A stretch of 64,000 nucleotides of DNA. It comes from a virus. Location of the stretch: positions 1 through 64,000 of IMG/VR virus record IMGVR_UViG_3300018080_008375. One strand, written 5' to 3'. Positions 5,618 to 55,862 of the stretch are shown in pieces. A program made the translations under genes and the position numbers. The notes beneath the pieces were generated by a model. It made no database searches. It worked only from the letters and a program-made list of their open reading frames with translations, and was not told the origin of the DNA. Numbering within the stretch: position 1 is the first letter of the stretch; the number at the start of each line of letters is the position of its first letter.

Positions 5618-5740
5618 TCCAGGGTAGTTCAAGGGTAGAACGGGCGGCTGTGGGCATTTCTGCGGCTCAGATAATAGGGCAGGTCGGCACTGCCAATGCT
5701 ACTAACCGCCAAGTTGGGGGTTCGAGTCCTCCCCCTGGAG
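5618..5740 (+). tRNA. tRNA-Asn(GTT) with a 51-nt insertion in the anticodon
   Basis: Acceptor TCCAGGG/CCCTGGA with G73; GGCGG-CTGT[5652-5702]TAA-CCGCC; normal D and T arms. Confidence 0.85.
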
Positions 5741-10964: not shown

Positions 10965-11121
10965 CGACAGGCAGGCGACGTTCGCGGATCAAAAGCTGCT
11001 ACCCGATTTTGAGGTCGAATGATATCTGGACGGCAGGCGCGCAAGGTGGATGGTTGACCAGACCTGGTCAAAGTTTTTTGGAATCTCCATAGGTTTGAAA
11101 AAGACTTTTAGCAATACTTCT

Positions 11122-11196
11122 GGCCCTGTAGCTCAGCCCGAACAGAGCAGACGGTTCCTACCCGTCAGGTCGTAGGTTTAAATCCTACCAGGGTCA
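11122..11196 (+). tRNA. tRNA-Arg(CCT)
   Basis: Acceptor GGCCCTG/CAGGGTC; anticodon arm GACGG-TTCCTAC-CCGTC. Confidence 0.87.
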
Positions 11197-11231
11197 CTTC
11201 AGGCGGATTTTTTATACGGCGCTGTTGATTG

Positions 11232-11305
11232 AGGGGCGAGGCCATGGCGGCCGGCGTGGCTCCAAACTACGCGATTCGAAGCGGGTTCGATTCCTGCCGC
11301 CCCTG
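11232..11305 (+). tRNA. tRNA-Trp(CCA), reduced D arm
   Basis: Acceptor AGGGGCG/CGCCCCT with G73; anticodon arm CGTGG-CTCCAAA-CTACG. Confidence 0.8.
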
Positions 11306-11308
11306 CCG

Positions 11309-11400
11309 CTTCCGCCGCCGGATGCCTTCCACGAGGTCCTGGCAAGCGCGCATGTGGTTATCCGCCGGTAGCGGTTCGAATCCGCCCCTGGCGGCGGAAG
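11309..11400 (+). ncRNA. tRNA-like RNA with a T-arm and 13-bp closing stem, no standard anticodon loop
   Basis: CTTCCGCCGCCGG/CTGGCGGCGGAAG encloses GCGG-TTCGAAT-CCGC. Confidence 0.55.
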
Positions 11401-11415
11401 CATTTAGGAGGACAT

Positions 11416-11622
11416 GTGGAATTTTTATTGCTGAAGTTCGCAGATGTTACAATACACACACAAACAGGAAAAGTGGATCCTAAAGATATGTGCGCTTATC
11501 ATAAGGCAGATGTGGTAATGTTTGTGGATGATACGAATGGTCATGAAACTTATGTGCTGAAAAATAAACATGGCCAATGTGGCAAAGTTGTCCCTGTTGC
11601 TGGGCGATATAAATCGTGGTGA
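11416..11622 (+). CDS. small protein resembling the DnaB C-terminal segment
   Basis: ADVVMFV...YVLKNKHGQCGKV; AGGAGG RBS; AT-rich. Confidence 0.5.
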   Translation: MEFLLLKFADVTIHTQTGKVDPKDMCAYHKADVVMFVDDTNGHETYVLKNKHGQCGKVVPVAGRYKSW

Positions 11623-11733
11623 AAATATGATAGTTGAAATGCCGGGCGGTATGGTTATGCTGGTAATTATGGGCGTTGTGCTCATGGTTGCCATGCTGGT
11701 GTTCGACAATCTCGGAAGGAAGTAGGTTTTGTT

Positions 11734-12294
11734 ATGACTTATGCTGCTGGATGTCCGAGCTGCGGCTGTGAAGTGGACCAGGTGACTATGAGCTGTACAG
11801 GTTGTTGCTGGAAGGAGTCTTTCATAGCCTCGGCGGCCGGCGGTCTTTCCGCGGTGCCACCCGAAGAGAAAAGGCAAGTCAGGGTGGGCGCATCTGTCAT
11901 CGTGTGGGGGATGAGCGATTACGGGGTGACGGGCAAGATCCTGATTGGCAAGCGAAAGGGGTCTCATGGTGCCGGTCTATGGTCTTTGCCTGGCGGGAAG
12001 ATGGAGCACGGCGAGGAGCCGGCAAAAGCAGCCGCCAGGGAGCTGCTCGAGGAGACGGGTCTCCAGACCGAGACGAGAAGGTTTCTTCCGCATCCGTTCA
12101 ACTCGTTTGTGGATGAGCGCGGTCAGCACTGGATTACCCTGATGTTTCAGTGCTGGCTACCGGATGGTGTTGAACCAATGTTAATGGAACCCGAGAAGTG
12201 CGGGGGCTGGCAATGGGTTCACACGTCGCACTTGAGGGATTTCCCTCTTTTCCAGCCGCTAGAGATGCTGGCGCGCGCAAGAGCGTGGATATAG
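11734..12294 (+). CDS. NUDIX hydrolase (NUDT15/MutT-like)
   Basis: KRKGSHGAGLWSLPGG...AARELLEETGL and EPEKCGGWQW. Confidence 0.9.
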   Translation: MTYAAGCPSCGCEVDQVTMSCTGCCWKESFIASAAGGLSAVPPEEKRQVRVGASVIVWGMSDYGVTGKILIGKRKGSHGAGLWSLPGGKMEHGEEPAKAAARELLEETGLQTETRRFLPHPFNSFVDERGQHWITLMFQCWLPDGVEPMLMEPEKCGGWQWVHTSHLRDFPLFQPLEMLARARAWI

Positions 12295-12300
12295 ACATAG

Positions 12301-12380
12301 ACCCCCGTAGTCGGTCTCGGCTACGGACCGAGCAGCCGTAATAGGAGCTGAAAATGCAGGTTCGAGTCCTGCCGGGGGTG
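12301..12380 (+). tRNA. D-armless tRNA-Arg(ACG) with an extra arm 3' of the anticodon
   Basis: Acceptor ACCCCCG/CGGGGGT; only 8 nt (TAGTCGGT) before CTCGG-CTACGGA-CCGAG; then CAGC-CGTAATAGGA-GCTG; T arm GCAGG-TTCGAGT-CCTGC. Confidence 0.75.
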
Positions 12381-12393
12381 CTAAAGGTTGGGC

Positions 12394-12873
12394 ATGTTTC
12401 TGAATCAGAAAAGCATTCCGTACATGTGCTGCCAGATGATCACGGCGATCAACGCCAGGATTTTTCTGGGCGGGGAGCCTGAAATTGATCCGCGGTATGA
12501 CGAGGACGACCTTATTCGTCCGCCCGATTTCGGATCATGGATGTTCGAGAACCTGGTGGACATAACCAAGTGCCGGTACGGATCATGCCTGTGCGTTGAG
12601 AGGGCGTGGAGGCATCTGCGCCTGGCAGGTCAAGCCGGACCATGGTGGAGCCTTGAGTGGATCAGGCACAGGCTGGTGGAGGGTCGGCCGGTGGCGGTCA
12701 GCGGTCTGCATCCGAAAGTGGGGGGACACAGCGCTCTGGCCGTCGGCGCCGACTGGGACAGGCTGCTGCTGGTGAACTGGAACGAGGGCGAAGAGACGAC
12801 TTGGCTGCCTCACAAAAGCTTGAATGCCCGGTGGAATTACGGTCCATTTGCGGCGTTTTCGAGGCTGGATTGA
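12394..12873 (+). CDS. putative C39-like cysteine peptidase
   Basis: Q...C near the N-terminus; GRPVAV...GHSALAVG...LLLVN. Confidence 0.5.
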   Translation: MFLNQKSIPYMCCQMITAINARIFLGGEPEIDPRYDEDDLIRPPDFGSWMFENLVDITKCRYGSCLCVERAWRHLRLAGQAGPWWSLEWIRHRLVEGRPVAVSGLHPKVGGHSALAVGADWDRLLLVNWNEGEETTWLPHKSLNARWNYGPFAAFSRLD

Positions 12874-12893
12874 AACGGAAACGGAAGTGGAAG

Positions 12894-14054
12894 ATGGATG
12901 TTGAAAAGCTGAAGGAAGCGGGAATCGTATCGATACGCGACGAGCTGCTCAGGCAGCAGGCAGAGGGCAGGACGATAGCAAGGACGGAGTCTGGCGACCC
13001 CTCGTTTGATCCTCCGTTGGCGGTCAGCGCCGCGATAGCCAAGGCGCTATTCACCGGCAAGACGCACTATACGGCGGGAGCCGGCATACCGGAGCTGAGG
13101 CGCGCGGCTGCCATGAAGGTGGTCAATGAGAACTTCATCCACGGCATCAACATGGATAATGTCCTGGTAACTAATGGCGCGATGCACGGCTTGTACATAG
13201 CCTTTCAGGCCATGTTTATTTCTCCAAACAAAGGGGCGGTAGCTGTTCCGACGCCGACTTGGACGGAGACGGAAGACAATATTAGGCTTGCCGGCGGTCA
13301 GATTGCGCATTTTGATTTTCCGATCGACGACATGGAAAAGTTCGAGAGCGATGTGCGCAGGTGGAGGGGCGTTTCCAATCTGAAGGCTGTTGTGCTGAAC
13401 ACGCCTCACAACCCCACCGGGCACGTCATGTCGACGGAGCAGCTGATGCTCGTAGCCAGGCTGTGCGACGAGCTGGACCTGTGGCTCGTGAGCGACGAAG
13501 CATACGAGCACCTGACGTACAACAGGGAGCATGTGAGCCCCGCCAGGTTCATGCAGTCGGACAATCATGTCACGCTGTTTTCGTGTTCCAAGTCGTATGC
13601 CATGAGCGGGCTTCGCGTGGGTTATCTGGTTACCCCGCACAAGCCTCTCATGCGCAGGCTGCGCTATCTGACGCGCTGTACGATCAATGGCGTGAACTCA
13701 ATCGCCCAGTACGGTGCCGCGGAGGCGCTGCTGAGGACGGACCAGCAGTACAGAACCAAGATGGTCCTGGAATACAAGAAAAGGCGGAACATTTTGTATT
13801 CCGCGCTACAGAAGTGTAGTTTCCTGGAGCCGGCGGTCGAGCCCGAGGGCGCATTCTACATATGGGCTAGGATCAAGGACTTCGATCCGGACAAGGATTC
13901 CGGATGGGACACCACCGTCAGGCTTCTTGAGTCGGGCGTTGGCAGCGCGCCGGGCGAGGTGTTCGGTCCCGGCGGCAAGGGTTTCGTTAGGTTCGCATTC
14001 TCGTGCGCGACCGATCATGTGGAGAGAGCCGCCGAAAAACTGGCGGTCATGTAG
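12894..14054 (+). CDS. PLP-dependent aminotransferase class I/II (aspartate aminotransferase-like)
   Basis: Motifs LNTPHNPTG, SDEAYE, SCSKSYAMSGLRVGY, PEGAFY and VRFAF. Confidence 0.93.
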   Translation: MDVEKLKEAGIVSIRDELLRQQAEGRTIARTESGDPSFDPPLAVSAAIAKALFTGKTHYTAGAGIPELRRAAAMKVVNENFIHGINMDNVLVTNGAMHGLYIAFQAMFISPNKGAVAVPTPTWTETEDNIRLAGGQIAHFDFPIDDMEKFESDVRRWRGVSNLKAVVLNTPHNPTGHVMSTEQLMLVARLCDELDLWLVSDEAYEHLTYNREHVSPARFMQSDNHVTLFSCSKSYAMSGLRVGYLVTPHKPLMRRLRYLTRCTINGVNSIAQYGAAEALLRTDQQYRTKMVLEYKKRRNILYSALQKCSFLEPAVEPEGAFYIWARIKDFDPDKDSGWDTTVRLLESGVGSAPGEVFGPGGKGFVRFAFSCATDHVERAAEKLAVM

Positions 14055-14066
14055 GAGGAAAAGAAA

Positions 14067-14306
14067 ATGGAGAGGCGCGTCAGCTGGCTGTGGTGCGAGA
14101 TGTGCGGGCGCTACGCGATGCCCGGATGCGGAGATGATGGCAACTGCTGCCATTCTCGCATGTGGCTGCTATCAGGAACTTCAAAAGAGTTTTCGGAATG
14201 GATGAGCAGGAAAGTGGCAAAGGACAGGGCGCAGCTGGCCAGGTGTTGTGCTCATGGGCAGTTTGCCCATGGTGAGTGTCCTAAGTGTTTTGAATATCGA
14301 AAATAA
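14067..14306 (+). CDS. Cys-rich hypothetical protein
   Basis: AGGAGG RBS; multiple Cys pairs. Confidence 0.55.
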   Translation: MERRVSWLWCEMCGRYAMPGCGDDGNCCHSRMWLLSGTSKEFSEWMSRKVAKDRAQLARCCAHGQFAHGECPKCFEYRK

Positions 14307-14325
14307 AGTGCGAAGTTTCGCACAA

Positions 14326-14397
14326 TCCTCCGTGAGCTAATGGCTAGGCTGCCGGGCTTTGAACTCGGCTGTGTAGGTTCGAATCCTACCGGAGGAG
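14326..14397 (+). tRNA. tRNA-Gln(TTG)
   Basis: Acceptor TCCTCCG/CGGAGGA; anticodon arm CCGGG-CTTTGAA-CTCGG. Confidence 0.9.
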
Positions 14398-14399
14398 CT

Positions 14400-14573
14400 G
14401 GAACGCAGCGGCCGAAGGCCGCACTGCCGAGCAGCAGGGTGGGAAAATGCTCCATTGATTCTGCCCGAACGACGCCAAGGCGTGGAGCAACCGCGCATAT
14501 GCCAAGAGCGGGCGACGCTCCGTGCGGTCTGGCAAGCCGCAAGGAGCCCGTAGGCAGTTGCCAAATGCGTTCC
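14400..14573 (+). ncRNA. candidate multi-branched ncRNA between two tRNAs
   Basis: Closing stem GGAACGCA/TGCGTTCC; inner stems GCGGC/GCCGC, ACTGCC/GGCAGT and ACGC/GCGT. Confidence 0.6.
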
Positions 14574-20029: not shown

Positions 20030-20176
20030 TGGACCGTAGCCTAATGACGACTGCCGAACGTCAGTCGGGGCATACACCGGCTGCCTAGTAGCTGAGCGTC
20101 ACCTCCGGGGCACCGGGGGCTTGAGAGGGCGACTTCTCTACGAAGGAAGATGCGGGTGCGAATCCCGCCGGTCCAG
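20030..20176 (+). ncRNA. tRNA-like RNA with an ~80-nt structured insertion in the D loop; best anticodon reading ACG
   Basis: Acceptor TGGACCG/CGGTCCA with G73; TAGCCTAA...GGGC D stem; CTTCT-CTACGAA-GGAAG; T arm GCGGG-TGCGAAT-CCCGC. Confidence 0.65.
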
Positions 20177-26503: not shown

Positions 26504-26797
26504 ATGAATGTGTTTCGATGGCTGGTTGAGAGAATCAGGGGCGGCAGAGTCGAAAGCGACGAGCAGGACAAGCTCGAGCAAGTCTTTTCCGACGCGATGA
26601 AATATAGGCTGGCGAACAGAAAAGTGGCATCGAACAAAGCTCTCGTCAGGTTCCTTGAAAGCGAGTTTGTGTCGCCGTCTTTCGTCCCGGAGCTTGTCAG
26701 AATGATAGGCGAGGATGGTTTGACATTCTCTGAGCGCGAGCTTATAACGCGCGTGACGGACCGTATCGCCCGCGCTTGGAAAACTGAGCCACGGTAG
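26504..26797 (+). CDS. hypothetical protein
   Basis: ORF whose stop lies inside the tRNA 5' end. Confidence 0.55.
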   Translation: MNVFRWLVERIRGGRVESDEQDKLEQVFSDAMKYRLANRKVASNKALVRFLESEFVSPSFVPELVRMIGEDGLTFSERELITRVTDRIARAWKTEPR

Positions 26798-26862
26798 CCC
26801 AATCGGCAGGAGGCACGGGTCTTAGGCACCTGACAGTGTGAGTTCGAATCTCACCCGTGGTA
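26788..26862 (+). tRNA. tRNA-Leu(TAG), short variable loop
   Basis: Acceptor GCCACGG/CCGTGGT; anticodon arm CGGGT-CTTAGGC-ACCTG. Confidence 0.88.
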
Positions 26863-26865
26863 TAC

Positions 26866-26942
26866 GCCGCCGTAGCCCAATTTGGTAGAGGCGCTAGTTT
26901 CAAAAACTAGGACTGATGAAGGTTCGAATCCTTCCGGCGGCA
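26866..26942 (+). tRNA. tRNA-Leu(CAA), short variable loop
   Basis: Acceptor GCCGCCG/CGGCGGC; anticodon arm CTAGT-TTCAAAA-ACTAG. Confidence 0.9.
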
Positions 26943-29293: not shown

Positions 29294-29367
29294 GCTGCGG
29301 TAGCCCAACCGGCAGAGGCACTAGCCCGAGGCGCTAGCCAGTGAGGGTTCGAATCCCTCCCGCAGCA
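29294..29367 (+). tRNA. tRNA-Leu(GAG), C33, short variable loop
   Basis: Acceptor GCTGCGG/CCGCAGC; anticodon arm CTAGC-CCGAGGC-GCTAG. Confidence 0.87.
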
Positions 29368-29396
29368 CACCAGATCAAAGTAAGGCTGTGTACAAG

Positions 29397-37244: not shown

Positions 37245-37318
37245 GGCTCCGTGTGCTAACTGGCATAGCATCTCGATTTAAAATCGAGCGTTTGGGGGTT
37301 CGAATCCCTCCGGGGCCA
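37245..37318 (+). tRNA. tRNA-Leu(TAA), short variable loop
   Basis: Acceptor GGCTCCG/CGGGGCC; anticodon arm CTCGA-TTTAAAA-TCGAG. Confidence 0.85.
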
Positions 37319-48512: not shown

Positions 48513-48902
48513 ATGGGATATGTTCAGTACATCATAGTCCGCAAGGACCTGGTTACGGAGATGGGAATTGGAAAGACGGCCGCCCAGGTAGCCCATGCGT
48601 CGTTGGGCGCGATCCTGGACAAGGGGAAGCTGGTTGACGACCCCGCAGTGCGCGGGTGGCTGACCGGAGCTTTCACCAAACTGGTGGTGTACGCCAAGAC
48701 CAGGCAGAAGCTCTTGAATCTTATAGGGAAATGCCGTGAAGCAGAACTCCGTGTTAAGCCGATTTACGATGCGTGCCGCACCAAGTTGGAACCGGAGGAG
48801 CCTGACGGCACCACGCTGACTTGCGTGGGGCTGTCTCCAGTGCGCGCCGATGAGGTGCCAAAGTTTCTCAAAAAGCTCAGGTTACTGGATGGTGAAAAAT
48901 GA
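48513..48902 (+). CDS. peptidyl-tRNA hydrolase Pth2 (archaeal/eukaryotic type)
   Basis: QYIIVRKDL..MGIGKTAAQVAHAS, KLVV, DACRT and T.TCVG. Confidence 0.88.
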   Translation: MGYVQYIIVRKDLVTEMGIGKTAAQVAHASLGAILDKGKLVDDPAVRGWLTGAFTKLVVYAKTRQKLLNLIGKCREAELRVKPIYDACRTKLEPEEPDGTTLTCVGLSPVRADEVPKFLKKLRLLDGEK

Positions 48903-49564
48903 ATGACAGCGAAAGACCAAGGTGGGACGACACATTTTTGAACATTGCGAGGGAGATTGCCAGGAGGTCCAAGGACCCGTCCACCAAAGTTGGATGCGTC
49001 ATTGTCGGTCCGGACAATGAGGTCCGCTCAGTCGGGTACAACTGTTTTCCCAGAGGCATTCGCGACAGTGAGTCAAGGCTTAACGACAGAAGGGAAAAGC
49101 TCCTCTTTGTTGAGCATTCCGAAAGAAACGCCGTGTACAATGCTGCTAGGGCGGGCATTTCTCTAAAGGGCTGTAGGATATACCTTCCTTGGCTTCCGTG
49201 TTCCGACTGTGCCAGGGCTATAATACAGTCCGGAATAGTAGAGGTTGTTACTGACAATCCCAATGTGCCAGCCAGGTGGCGCAGGGATTTTGCCGTATCG
49301 CTGACGATGTTACATGAGGCTGGCGTGCTGATCAGACGGCCCGGAGGCCGGCCTGTAAATATCTGCGCAGTTATGGGGCGAGCATGGGTAGGCAAAACTA
49401 TAAAAACGCGCGATGGAGAAAAGCGTACGATCAAGTATGTTTATTTTAACGCTAGTGGCGAGATTATTGTGTCGTTCAAAGAAGTTGCCCTGCTTGAAAC
49501 AGCCAGGTCTTTCGCCGACGTCGAGCGGCGCATTGTCGAACCGGAGGCGGCTATTGTCCCTTGA
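48899..49564 (+). CDS. dCMP deaminase with C-terminal extension
   Basis: RSKDPSTKVG, HSERNA and PCSDCARAIIQSGI. Confidence 0.9.
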   Translation: MNDSERPRWDDTFLNIAREIARRSKDPSTKVGCVIVGPDNEVRSVGYNCFPRGIRDSESRLNDRREKLLFVEHSERNAVYNAARAGISLKGCRIYLPWLPCSDCARAIIQSGIVEVVTDNPNVPARWRRDFAVSLTMLHEAGVLIRRPGGRPVNICAVMGRAWVGKTIKTRDGEKRTIKYVYFNASGEIIVSFKEVALLETARSFADVERRIVEPEAAIVP

Positions 49565-55471: not shown

Positions 55472-55785
55472 TGGGCAAATCCTGGGCGGATGCCGCCATT
55501 GATAAACTGGCTGGCGGCGAATCGGCGGATATCAGGCCGCATGGTAATTCCATGAAGGGAAAGGTCGAGAGCGGGCAGCAGGTAACGGTATCCCCGTGCG
55601 ACGAGAGCGGGCTGGCTGCCGGCGACATGGTGCTCGTGCGCGTGAAGGGGCGCGTGTACCTTCATCTTGTCAAAGCCGTTCGCGAAGGCAAGGACGGAAA
55701 AAGGAGGTTTCAGATAGGCAACAATTGCGGTGGTATAAACGGCTGGGTTGGAGCCAAGGCGATCTACGGAAAAATGGAGGGATGA
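55471..55785 (+). CDS. S24/S26 peptidase-like protein
   Basis: GNSM...GD.VL...YLHLV...GNN.G.INGW...IYGK. Confidence 0.7.
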   Translation: MGKSWADAAIDKLAGGESADIRPHGNSMKGKVESGQQVTVSPCDESGLAAGDMVLVRVKGRVYLHLVKAVREGKDGKRRFQIGNNCGGINGWVGAKAIYGKMEG

Positions 55786-55862
55786 TCCATAGGGGTTGGT
55801 GCCGGATACGGTCCGGGAGCCGCTGCGGCGGTTCAGGGGTTCGATTCCCCTTCCCTCCGCCA
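55776..55862 (+). tRNA. Ser-type tRNA body carrying an ACG anticodon, CCA encoded
   Basis: Acceptor GGAGGGA/TCCCTCC-GCCA; CCGGA-TACGG-TCCGG; long arm GAGCCGC/GCGGTTC; T arm AGGGG-TTCGATT-CCCCT. Confidence 0.75.

What the first reader, a model, noticed from the sequence alone, without database searches (positions are those of the whole stretch)
12301..12380. D-armless tRNA-Arg(ACG) with a D-loop-like hairpin on the other side of the anticodon arm
Seen: acceptor, anticodon and T arms are perfect, but only 8 nt link the acceptor to the anticodon stem. A hairpin CAGC-CGTAATAGGA-GCTG sits in the variable position, and its loop resembles a D loop (TAA..GGA). Known: D-armless tRNAs are typical of mitochondria, not bacteria, and ArgRS uses D-loop A20. 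Inference: the displaced arm may supply the GG/T-loop contact and A20 in a rearranged topology.
Basis: partly seen in the sequence, partly recalled or inferred. Interest (0 to 1): 0.8.

Follow-up and report, generated by a model that had tools for sequence, protein, structure and literature searches.

The report
Rewired, non-cloverleaf phage arginine tRNA
This 80-base gene of a huge phage is very probably a working arginine tRNA (anticodon ACG) whose D-arm is not lost but threaded in a different order around the anticodon arm, a conserved phage design that tRNA finders miss and that I found in no paper.

Summary
Window 12301-12380 has perfect acceptor, anticodon and T arms, only 8 nt before the anticodon stem, and a D-loop-like motif after it. 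ARAGORN and Rfam's tRNA model do not call it.

The reading is half right. It is an Arg(ACG) tRNA with its D-loop moved behind the anticodon arm, but it is not D-armless and the proposed local hairpin is not conserved.

Two pattern scans of IMG/VR gave 72 ACG-type and 79 further distinct relatives, all with Arg anticodons. In an 80-sequence alignment, five "linker" bases (12310-12314) pair with 12336-12338 and 12347-12348, on either side of the D-loop-like motif:
- This helix is 91% paired, against 72% in shuffles, with many double changes.
- The energy-minimum cloverleaf (anticodon AAU) is only 40% paired.

A covariance model built without the window scores it at 85 bits; ordinary tRNAs reach at most 33. 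RNAalifold finds the same layout unaided.

Against: for this one sequence the rewired fold is 7-10 kcal/mol above the computed minimum. There are no expression or charging data.

This scan has seen the same class before on other phage DNA. I found no published description.

The parts
12301..12307 (+). Acceptor stem, 5' strand
   Evidence: 7/7 pairs with 12373-12379. The family columns are 99% paired and all 7 pairs covary.
12308..12309 (+). U8 A9, invariant in the family
   Evidence: Invariant in 80/80 sequences. RNAalifold pairs them with 12349-12350 (U.G, A-U), but these columns never vary, so this cannot be tested.
12310..12314 (+). 5' strand of the D-stem-like helix
   Evidence: Pairs G12310-C12348, U12311.G12347, C12312-G12338, G12313-C12337 and G12314-C12336. 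The family columns are 91.3% paired against 71.5% in shuffles (0/500), and 25-40% when slid.
12316..12332 (+). Anticodon arm: 5-bp stem and 7-nt loop, anticodon ACG at 12323-12325
   Evidence: 5/5 pairs. The family stem is 94.5% paired and all 5 pairs covary. All family anticodons are arginine ones.
12336..12338 (+). 3' strand of the D-stem-like helix, first part, just after the anticodon arm
   Evidence: Columns 38-40 of A1. Pair 13-39 reads GC 64, AU 12, CG 3, GU 1, with 0 unpaired.
12339..12346 (+). D-loop-like segment (U-A-A-U-A-G-G-A), an 8-nt bulge in the D-like helix. GG at 12344-12345; A20-like A at 12346.
   Evidence: The motif is conserved. The U before it and the A after GG occur in 72/72 ACG-type relatives without being forced by the pattern.
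12347..12348 (+). 3' strand of the D-stem-like helix, second part, after the D-loop-like segment
   Evidence: Pair 10-50 reads GC 49, AU 27, CG 2, GU 1, UA 1, with 0 unpaired. Pair 11-49 reads CG 51, UA 12, AU 7, UG 3, GC 1, with 6 unpaired.
12349..12355 (+). Conserved A-rich connector (U-G-A-A-A-A-U) to the T stem
   Evidence: Invariant or nearly invariant columns in A1. Its role is inferred only.
12356..12372 (+). T arm (5-bp stem, TTCGAGT loop)
   Evidence: 5/5 pairs; family 98.8% paired.
12373..12380 (+). Acceptor stem 3' strand and discriminator G; no encoded CCA
   Evidence: Most other tRNA genes of this phage also lack an encoded CCA.

Best explanation
Window 12301-12380 encodes a functional tRNA-Arg(ACG) of a phage-borne, non-cloverleaf tRNA class.

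Layout:
- Acceptor, anticodon and T arms are canonical.
- There is no D hairpin. Five bases right after U8-A9 (12310-12314) form a 5-bp helix with a split partner strand: 12336-12338 directly after the anticodon arm, and 12347-12348 after an 8-nt D-loop-like bulge.
- The anticodon hairpin therefore sits nested inside the helix that replaces the D stem. All pairs are nested and there is no pseudoknot.

Inferred, not shown:
- This helix stacks on the anticodon stem as a D stem does.
- The bulged GG (12344-12345) docks on the T loop to make the elbow.
- The following A (12346) serves as the A20 identity element for host ArgRS, together with C35 and G36.
- Host RNase P, CCA-adding enzyme and TadA (A34 to inosine) mature the RNA.
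- It then reads CGU, CGC and CGA, about 43% of this phage's arginine codons.
For: **Family**
- Two IMG/VR pattern scans gave 72 distinct ACG-type sequences and 79 further distinct sequences with the same layout.
- Their anticodons are UCU, UCG, ACG and CCU, apart from two unclear loops (L226, L256). All are arginine anticodons with C35.

**Pairing across the family**
- The D-like helix is 91.3% paired against 71.5 +/- 1.1 in shuffles (0/500). Its covariation score is 0.596 against 0.215, and slid controls give 25-40%.
- Pairs 10-50 and 11-49 each show five pair types.
- RNAalifold predicts the same topology unaided.
- A model built from 79 relatives without the window scores the window at 85.2 bits, full length, with no non-standard pair. 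The next hits are ordinary tRNAs at 33 bits or less.

**Signs of function**
- All five D-like pairs and all three canonical stems are intact in the window.
- The A after GG is 72/72 and CCA is encoded in 57/72 relatives.
- Members sit in tRNA arrays. In the complete genome of Vibrio phage vB_VpS_PG07 the member lies 7 nt from tRNA-Ile. It is the only Arg tRNA among 19 calls in the 45 kb examined around its tRNA cluster.
- In 36 of 44 arrays no canonical Arg tRNA with the same anticodon lies in the fetched stretch.
- This phage record has no canonical ACG tRNA but uses CGC 649, CGU 140 and CGA 119 times in a crude ORF set.
Against: - For this single sequence the nearest-neighbour energy of the rewired fold is -26.7 to -30.6 kcal/mol.
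- Only 30 of 80 relatives show any of the five pairs in their own minimum-energy fold.
- Pair 14-38 is unpaired in 29 of 80 relatives.
- There are no expression, processing, charging or editing data for any member.
- The window copy is the only ACG member with G37. It has no encoded CCA, and no CCA-adding enzyme, ArgRS or TadA was found in the 99.8-kb fragment.
- 8 of 44 arrays also carry a canonical Arg tRNA with the same anticodon, so the class is not simply a replacement.
- The sequences are related, and they were collected with patterns that fix the D-loop motif and the T loop.
- The three-dimensional claims are inference.
Confidence: 0.72

Rival explanations
1. This is a D-armless tRNA-Arg(ACG) with an unpaired 8-nt connector. 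A local hairpin (12333-12336 with 12347-12350) in the variable position presents the D-loop-like loop.
For: The 4 bp exist in the window. Their computed energy (-29.8) is similar to that of the rewired fold. The two outer pairs fall on conserved U/A and U/G columns.
Against: Across 80 relatives the helix is 67.5% paired against 67.9% in shuffles (330/500), and its covariation score is 0.115 against 0.114. The inner pairs are unpaired in 61/80 and 31/80. The same bases, 12347-12348, covary with 12310-12311 instead.
Confidence: 0.05
2. The minimum-energy cloverleaf. It has a long D-like stem (12311-12316 with 12326-12331) and an anticodon arm made of the 12333-12350 hairpin. The anticodon would be AAU, or an 8-nt loop would make it a frameshift-type reader.
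For: This is the RNAfold minimum, -37.2 kcal/mol, z -3.6. ARAGORN in relaxed mitochondrial mode draws this shape. In Vibrio phage PG07, ARAGORN makes a similar miscall, Arg(ccg).
Against: Its D-like stem is only 39.8% paired in the family. Its 'anticodon loop' is the motif that stays constant while the real anticodon changes among four Arg anticodons. The 16-20/28-32 stem that it destroys covaries at all 5 pairs.
Confidence: 0.03
3. The same rewired fold, but not a decoder. It would be a tRNA-Arg look-alike kept as a decoy or sponge for a host tRNA-cutting defence or a tRNA-binding protein, or as some other regulatory RNA.
For: 8 of 44 arrays also hold a canonical Arg tRNA with the same anticodon. 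This phage carries two other odd ACG-bearing tRNA-like genes, at 20030-20176 and 55776-55862. Phage tRNAs are known to counter tRNA-targeting defences (PMC10264068).
Against: The class keeps all four Arg anticodons, standard anticodon loops, the A20-like base, canonical acceptor and T arms, and often an encoded CCA. That is what a charged, ribosome-used tRNA needs. In most arrays it is the only gene for its anticodon.
Confidence: 0.15
4. A decaying relic: a broken tRNA-Arg gene with a deleted D-arm and a chance insertion.
For: Standard finders reject it. The same phage has other damaged-looking tRNA-like genes.
Against: Every stem is perfect. It aligns without gaps to a model of 79 independent relatives at 85 bits. 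The supposedly damaged parts are the most conserved and covarying parts of the family.
Confidence: 0.04

Closest known systems
Canonical class I bacterial and phage tRNA-Arg(ACG) (Rfam RF00005), for example the ordinary phage copy at L027 found
   Same: It has a 7-bp acceptor stem and a 5-bp T stem with a GTTCGA-type loop. The anticodon arm has a 5-bp stem and the loop C-U-A-C-G-R-A. The D-loop-type motif carries GG followed by A. The total length is close, at 80 against about 74.
   Different: There is no D hairpin between position 9 and the anticodon arm. The D-stem partner strand and the D-loop motif lie after the anticodon arm, so the anticodon hairpin is nested inside the D-like helix. 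RF00005 gives no match at E up to 10.
Mitochondrial D-armless tRNAs (for example nematode and mammalian mt-tRNA-Ser; review PMC7609411)
   Same: No D hairpin, and a short stretch between the acceptor and anticodon stems.
   Different: In those tRNAs the connector is an unpaired replacement loop, and the D-loop/T-loop contact is lost or loosened. Here the connector pairs and covaries, a full D-loop-type motif with GG is kept, and the T arm is fully canonical. ARAGORN's mitochondrial mode does not call it at default settings.
Class II tRNAs and tRNA-Sec (long variable arm)
   Same: About 23 nt lie between the anticodon stem and the T stem. The weak Rfam tRNA-Sec match (17.5 bits, gathering score 47) aligns that region as a variable arm.
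   Different: The variable-arm hairpin is not conserved. The acceptor/T arrangement is 7/5, not 8/5. There is no D arm, and the anticodon is Arg.
Allo-tRNAs and other non-canonical cloverleaves from metagenomes (PMC5389517)
   Same: They are natural tRNAs, some from phages, that depart from the standard secondary structure and were found by sequence mining.
   Different: Allo-tRNAs change the acceptor/T stem lengths (8/4, 9/3) but keep the cloverleaf order of arms. Here the stem lengths are standard and the order of the strands is changed.

Membership tests
Canonical cloverleaf tRNA (Rfam RF00005) | Acceptor stem 7 bp, T arm 5 bp with a T-loop consensus | tested here: met
   family columns 99% and 98.8% paired.
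Canonical cloverleaf tRNA (Rfam RF00005) | D hairpin (stem 10-13/22-25 closing the D loop) between position 9 and the anticodon arm | tested here: not met
   Only 8 nt lie there, and they pair with bases beyond the anticodon arm.
Canonical cloverleaf tRNA (Rfam RF00005) | Score at or above the RF00005 gathering threshold (29 bits) | tested here: not met
   No RF00005 match at E up to 10 in 12200-12480. ARAGORN makes no call at default settings.
Rewired-D-arm phage tRNA-Arg class (unpublished; defined by the alignment made here) | 12-13 nt between the acceptor stem and the anticodon loop, U8-A9 kept, and the U-A-A-Y-N-G-G-A motif after the anticodon arm | tested here: met
Rewired-D-arm phage tRNA-Arg class (unpublished; defined by the alignment made here) | Five nested pairs between positions 10-14 and the bases that flank the D-loop-like motif | tested here: met
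   5 of 5 are formed in the window; family statistics are.
Rewired-D-arm phage tRNA-Arg class (unpublished; defined by the alignment made here) | Arginine anticodon with C35 in a standard 7-nt loop | tested here: met
   ACG at 12323-12325; family anticodon tally.
Rewired-D-arm phage tRNA-Arg class (unpublished; defined by the alignment made here) | High score with a covariance model built without the window | tested here: met
   85.2 bits, E 1.6e-19, model positions 1-80.
Rewired-D-arm phage tRNA-Arg class (unpublished; defined by the alignment made here) | Matured, arginylated and used in translation | not testable with these tools
   No expression or biochemical data are at hand.
Mitochondrial-type D-armless tRNA | Unpaired D-replacement connector and loss of the D-loop/T-loop motif pair | tested here: not met
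   The connector covaries with downstream bases, and the GG motif and T loop are conserved.
Class II tRNA / tRNA-Sec | Conserved variable-arm hairpin; for Sec an 8/5 acceptor/T arrangement, a 6-bp D stem and a UCA anticodon | tested here: not met
   The hairpin has no covariation. The tRNA-Sec model scores 17.5 bits against a gathering score of 47.

The most novel reading that the evidence does not exclude
A whole class of phage tRNAs builds the L-shape with a permuted strand order. It is charged by the host ArgRS and used on the ribosome. The rewiring is selected because it lets the phage's arginine tRNA escape a host (or phage-encoded) nuclease or modifier that recognises the normal D-arm of tRNA-Arg. 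This would explain why some arrays keep both a canonical and a rewired copy.
Probability: 0.2. Interest if true: 0.92.

Novelty: new variant of a known kind. Interest (0 to 1): 0.8.

Why it matters
The cloverleaf order of arms is treated as universal for cytoplasmic tRNAs of bacteria and their viruses. A conserved, covarying class with every tRNA part present but joined in a different order would have three consequences:
- It would show that the tRNA core tolerates a change of chain topology.
- Phage tRNA repertoires would be under-counted. ARAGORN called nothing in 71 of 80 members, and the member in Microbacterium phage Pumpernickel is unannotated in a record that annotates its other tRNAs.
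- Synthetase recognition (A20 in a bulge instead of a hairpin loop), RNase P, EF-Tu and ribosome tolerance, and phage-host conflicts over tRNA-Arg would gain a natural test case.

Cultured phages that carry members (Vibrio phage vB_VpS_PG07, Microbacterium phage Pumpernickel) make this directly testable.

Tried and rejected
**Searches that found nothing**
- BLAST of 11000-14500 against cultured phages gave no match.
- Synteny searches with the neighbouring NUDIX and aminotransferase proteins in IMG/VR found no relative. This phage has no close relative in the collections searched.
- A metagenome scan for near copies gave one moderately similar member, L299.

**Uninformative searches**
- An exact T-arm plus acceptor search returned mostly ordinary tRNA-Arg genes.
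- Relaxed ARAGORN runs gave two mutually inconsistent folds, Leu(gag) and an 8-nt loop, neither supported by the family.

**Readings rejected**
- The tRNA-Sec reading scores 17.5 bits against a gathering score of 47.
- An intron or permuted-gene reading fails, because no single excision can move the D-loop motif in front of the anticodon arm.

**Phage-encoded partners looked for**
- No ArgRS and no CCA-adding enzyme were found in the fragment.
- The one deaminase, at 48899-49564, looks like a dCMP deaminase, not TadA.

**Not resolved**
- The extra pairs 8-52 and 9-51 proposed by RNAalifold fall on invariant columns. They cannot be told apart from the alternative 33-52 and 34-51.

**Literature**
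- Six full-text searches and the review of non-canonical tRNAs (PMC7609411) gave no description of this layout. Subscription journals were not covered.

Full report
**What is there**

The window is the first 64 kb of a 99.8-kb IMG/VR virus record that CheckV rates about 25% complete, so it is a fragment of a huge phage. ARAGORN finds 31 tRNA genes and a tmRNA, all on the + strand.

The finding lies in a 93-nt gap. Upstream is a NUDIX-hydrolase ORF that ends at 12294. Downstream is the next ORF, followed by a class I/II aminotransferase.

- The acceptor stem is perfect, 12301-12307 with 12373-12379.
- The anticodon arm, 12316-12332, has a 5-bp stem and a 7-nt loop with U33 and ACG.
- The T arm, 12356-12372, is perfect.
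- Only 8 nt lie between the acceptor and anticodon stems.
- A 23-nt stretch after the anticodon arm holds a D-loop-like A-A-U-A-G-G-A.

ARAGORN at default settings and Rfam's tRNA model do not call it. The best Rfam match is tRNA-Sec at 17.5 bits, against a gathering score of 47.

**Three competing folds for the middle**

2. The RNAfold minimum (-37.2 kcal/mol). This is a cloverleaf-like shape that destroys the ACG arm and presents AAU.
3. A rewired fold, in which the connector pairs with bases beyond the anticodon arm.

One sequence cannot decide between them, so I looked for relatives.

**Relatives**

Neighbour-protein and BLAST searches found no close relative of this phage.

The first IMG/VR pattern fixed only the ACG loop, a loose D-loop motif and the T loop. 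Of these, 72 distinct sequences, the window's own included, have a 7-bp acceptor stem and only 12-13 nt before the anticodon loop.

The second pattern put no constraint on the anticodon. It gave 79 further distinct sequences with the window's exact layout. Their anticodons are UCU, UCG, ACG and CCU, apart from two unclear loops. All four are arginine anticodons with C35.

In the ACG set, three features appeared without being forced by the pattern:
- The A after GG is present in 72 of 72.
- The U before the motif is present in 72 of 72.
- CCA is encoded in 57 of 72.

**Which fold the family supports**

I aligned the window with the 79 second-scan sequences (A1) and counted pairs for each fold.

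| Fold or helix | Cells paired | Shuffle control | Covariation score |
|---|---|---|---|
| Rewired D-like helix (columns 10-50, 11-49, 12-40, 13-39, 14-38) | 91.3% | 71.5 +/- 1.1% (0/500 as high) | 0.596 vs 0.215 |
| D-like stem of the minimum-energy fold | 39.8% | not run for this stem alone | not run |

Further details:
- When the partners of the rewired helix are slid by 1-3 columns, pairing drops to 25-40%.
- Pair 10-50 reads GC 49, AU 27, CG 2, GU 1, UA 1, with none unpaired.
- Pair 11-49 reads CG 51, UA 12, AU 7, UG 3, GC 1.
- Pair 13-39 reads GC 64, AU 12, CG 3, GU 1.
- The ACG-type anticodon stem covaries at all five pairs.
- RNAalifold, given no structure, returns the rewired topology.
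- In the 63 ACG-type sequences with a 12-nt connector, a shorter version of the same helix holds. The two core pairs are 63/63 and 62/63 paired, each with four pair types.

**Membership of the window copy**

A covariance model built from the 79 relatives without the window scores 12301-12380 at 85.2 bits, E 1.6e-19. The match is full length, with no non-standard pair. The next hits in the window are ordinary tRNAs at 33 bits or less.

In window coordinates the D-like helix is:
- G12310-C12348
- U12311.G12347
- C12312-G12338
- G12313-C12337
- G12314-C12336

The segment 12339-12346 is an 8-nt bulge on the 3' strand. The anticodon hairpin is nested inside the helix. Everything is nested, and I see no need for a pseudoknot.

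**Function (inferred)**

These features are what a charged, ribosome-used tRNA needs:
- Only arginine anticodons occur, in standard anticodon loops.
- The A20-like base is conserved.
- The acceptor and T arms are canonical.
- CCA is often encoded.

Members also sit in tRNA arrays. In the complete genome of Vibrio phage vB_VpS_PG07, the member scores 81.6 bits and lies 7 nt from tRNA-Ile. It is the only Arg tRNA among 19 calls in the 45 kb examined around the tRNA cluster, and ARAGORN misreads it as Arg(ccg).

In Microbacterium phage Pumpernickel a member fills an 84-nt unannotated gap in a record that does annotate its other tRNAs.

Of 44 members in arrays, 36 have no canonical Arg tRNA with the same anticodon in the fetched stretch, and 8 do.

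This phage record has no canonical ACG tRNA. CGC, CGU and CGA make up about 43% of Arg codons in a crude ORF set.

The stacking of the D-like helix on the anticodon stem, the GG contact with the T loop, recognition of A12346 by ArgRS and editing by host TadA are inferences from textbook tRNA knowledge. None was shown here.

**Caveats**

- For this sequence the rewired fold is 7-10 kcal/mol above the computed minimum. Nearest-neighbour models ignore tertiary contacts and penalise the bulge, and only 30 of 80 relatives show any of the five pairs in their own minimum.
- Pair 14-38 is often unpaired.
- The window copy is the only ACG member with G37, and it has no encoded CCA.
- No ArgRS, CCA-adding enzyme or TadA was found in the fragment. 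The deaminase at 48899-49564 is dCMP-deaminase-like.
- No expression or charging data exist for any member.

**Distribution and novelty**

The same pattern hits only 37 places in one genome for each of 185,579 prokaryote species. About 16 of these have the family layout, mostly on MAG contigs. The class is therefore mainly phage-borne.

ARAGORN calls nothing in 71 of 80 members.

Six full-text searches and a review of non-canonical tRNAs gave no description of this layout.

Earlier notes of this scan describe the same class on other phage DNA. I tested the claim independently here and agree with the nested, non-pseudoknot version.

Noticed in passing
window 26788-26862, 26866-26942, 29294-29368, 37245-37318: All four phage tRNAs with leucine anticodons (UAG, CAA, GAG, UAA) are 74-77 nt with 5-7-nt variable loops. 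That makes them class I in shape, without the long variable arm of bacterial tRNA-Leu. Vibrio phage PG07's two tRNA-Leu calls are also 77 nt.
   Followed up: no
window 20030-20176 and 55776-55862: There are two more ACG-bearing odd tRNA-like genes in the same phage. One has about 80 extra bases in the D region. The other has a serine-type body with a long variable arm and encoded CCA. Neither matches the rewired-class model, scoring 16 and 15 bits.
   Followed up: partly
window 5618-5740: A tRNA-shaped gene with perfect acceptor and T arms and a long insert in the anticodon region, missed by ARAGORN. Earlier notes read it as tRNA-Asn with a mini-intron.
   Followed up: no
window 48899-49564 (+): A 221-aa zinc deaminase (dCMP_cyt_deam_1, 73 bits). 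Its best NCBIfam similarities are to ComEB and an anti-phage dCTP deaminase, both far below their cut-offs. It is not TadA-like.
   Followed up: partly
window 11734-12294 and 12657-14054 (+): The rewired tRNA gene is flanked by a NUDIX hydrolase and a class I/II aminotransferase. Neither has close relatives in IMG/VR by the peptide-pattern search.
   Followed up: partly
L301:19747-19829 (Vibrio phage vB_VpS_PG07, NC_048041): ARAGORN calls this rewired ACG member 'tRNA-Arg(ccg)'. It does so by folding the D-loop-like motif as an anticodon loop. Some published phage tRNA tables may therefore carry wrong anticodons for this class.
   Followed up: partly
L301:9561-9642 (-): A second, weak match (31 bits) of the rewired-class model in Vibrio phage PG07, outside any ARAGORN call. 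It may be another non-standard tRNA-like gene.
   Followed up: no
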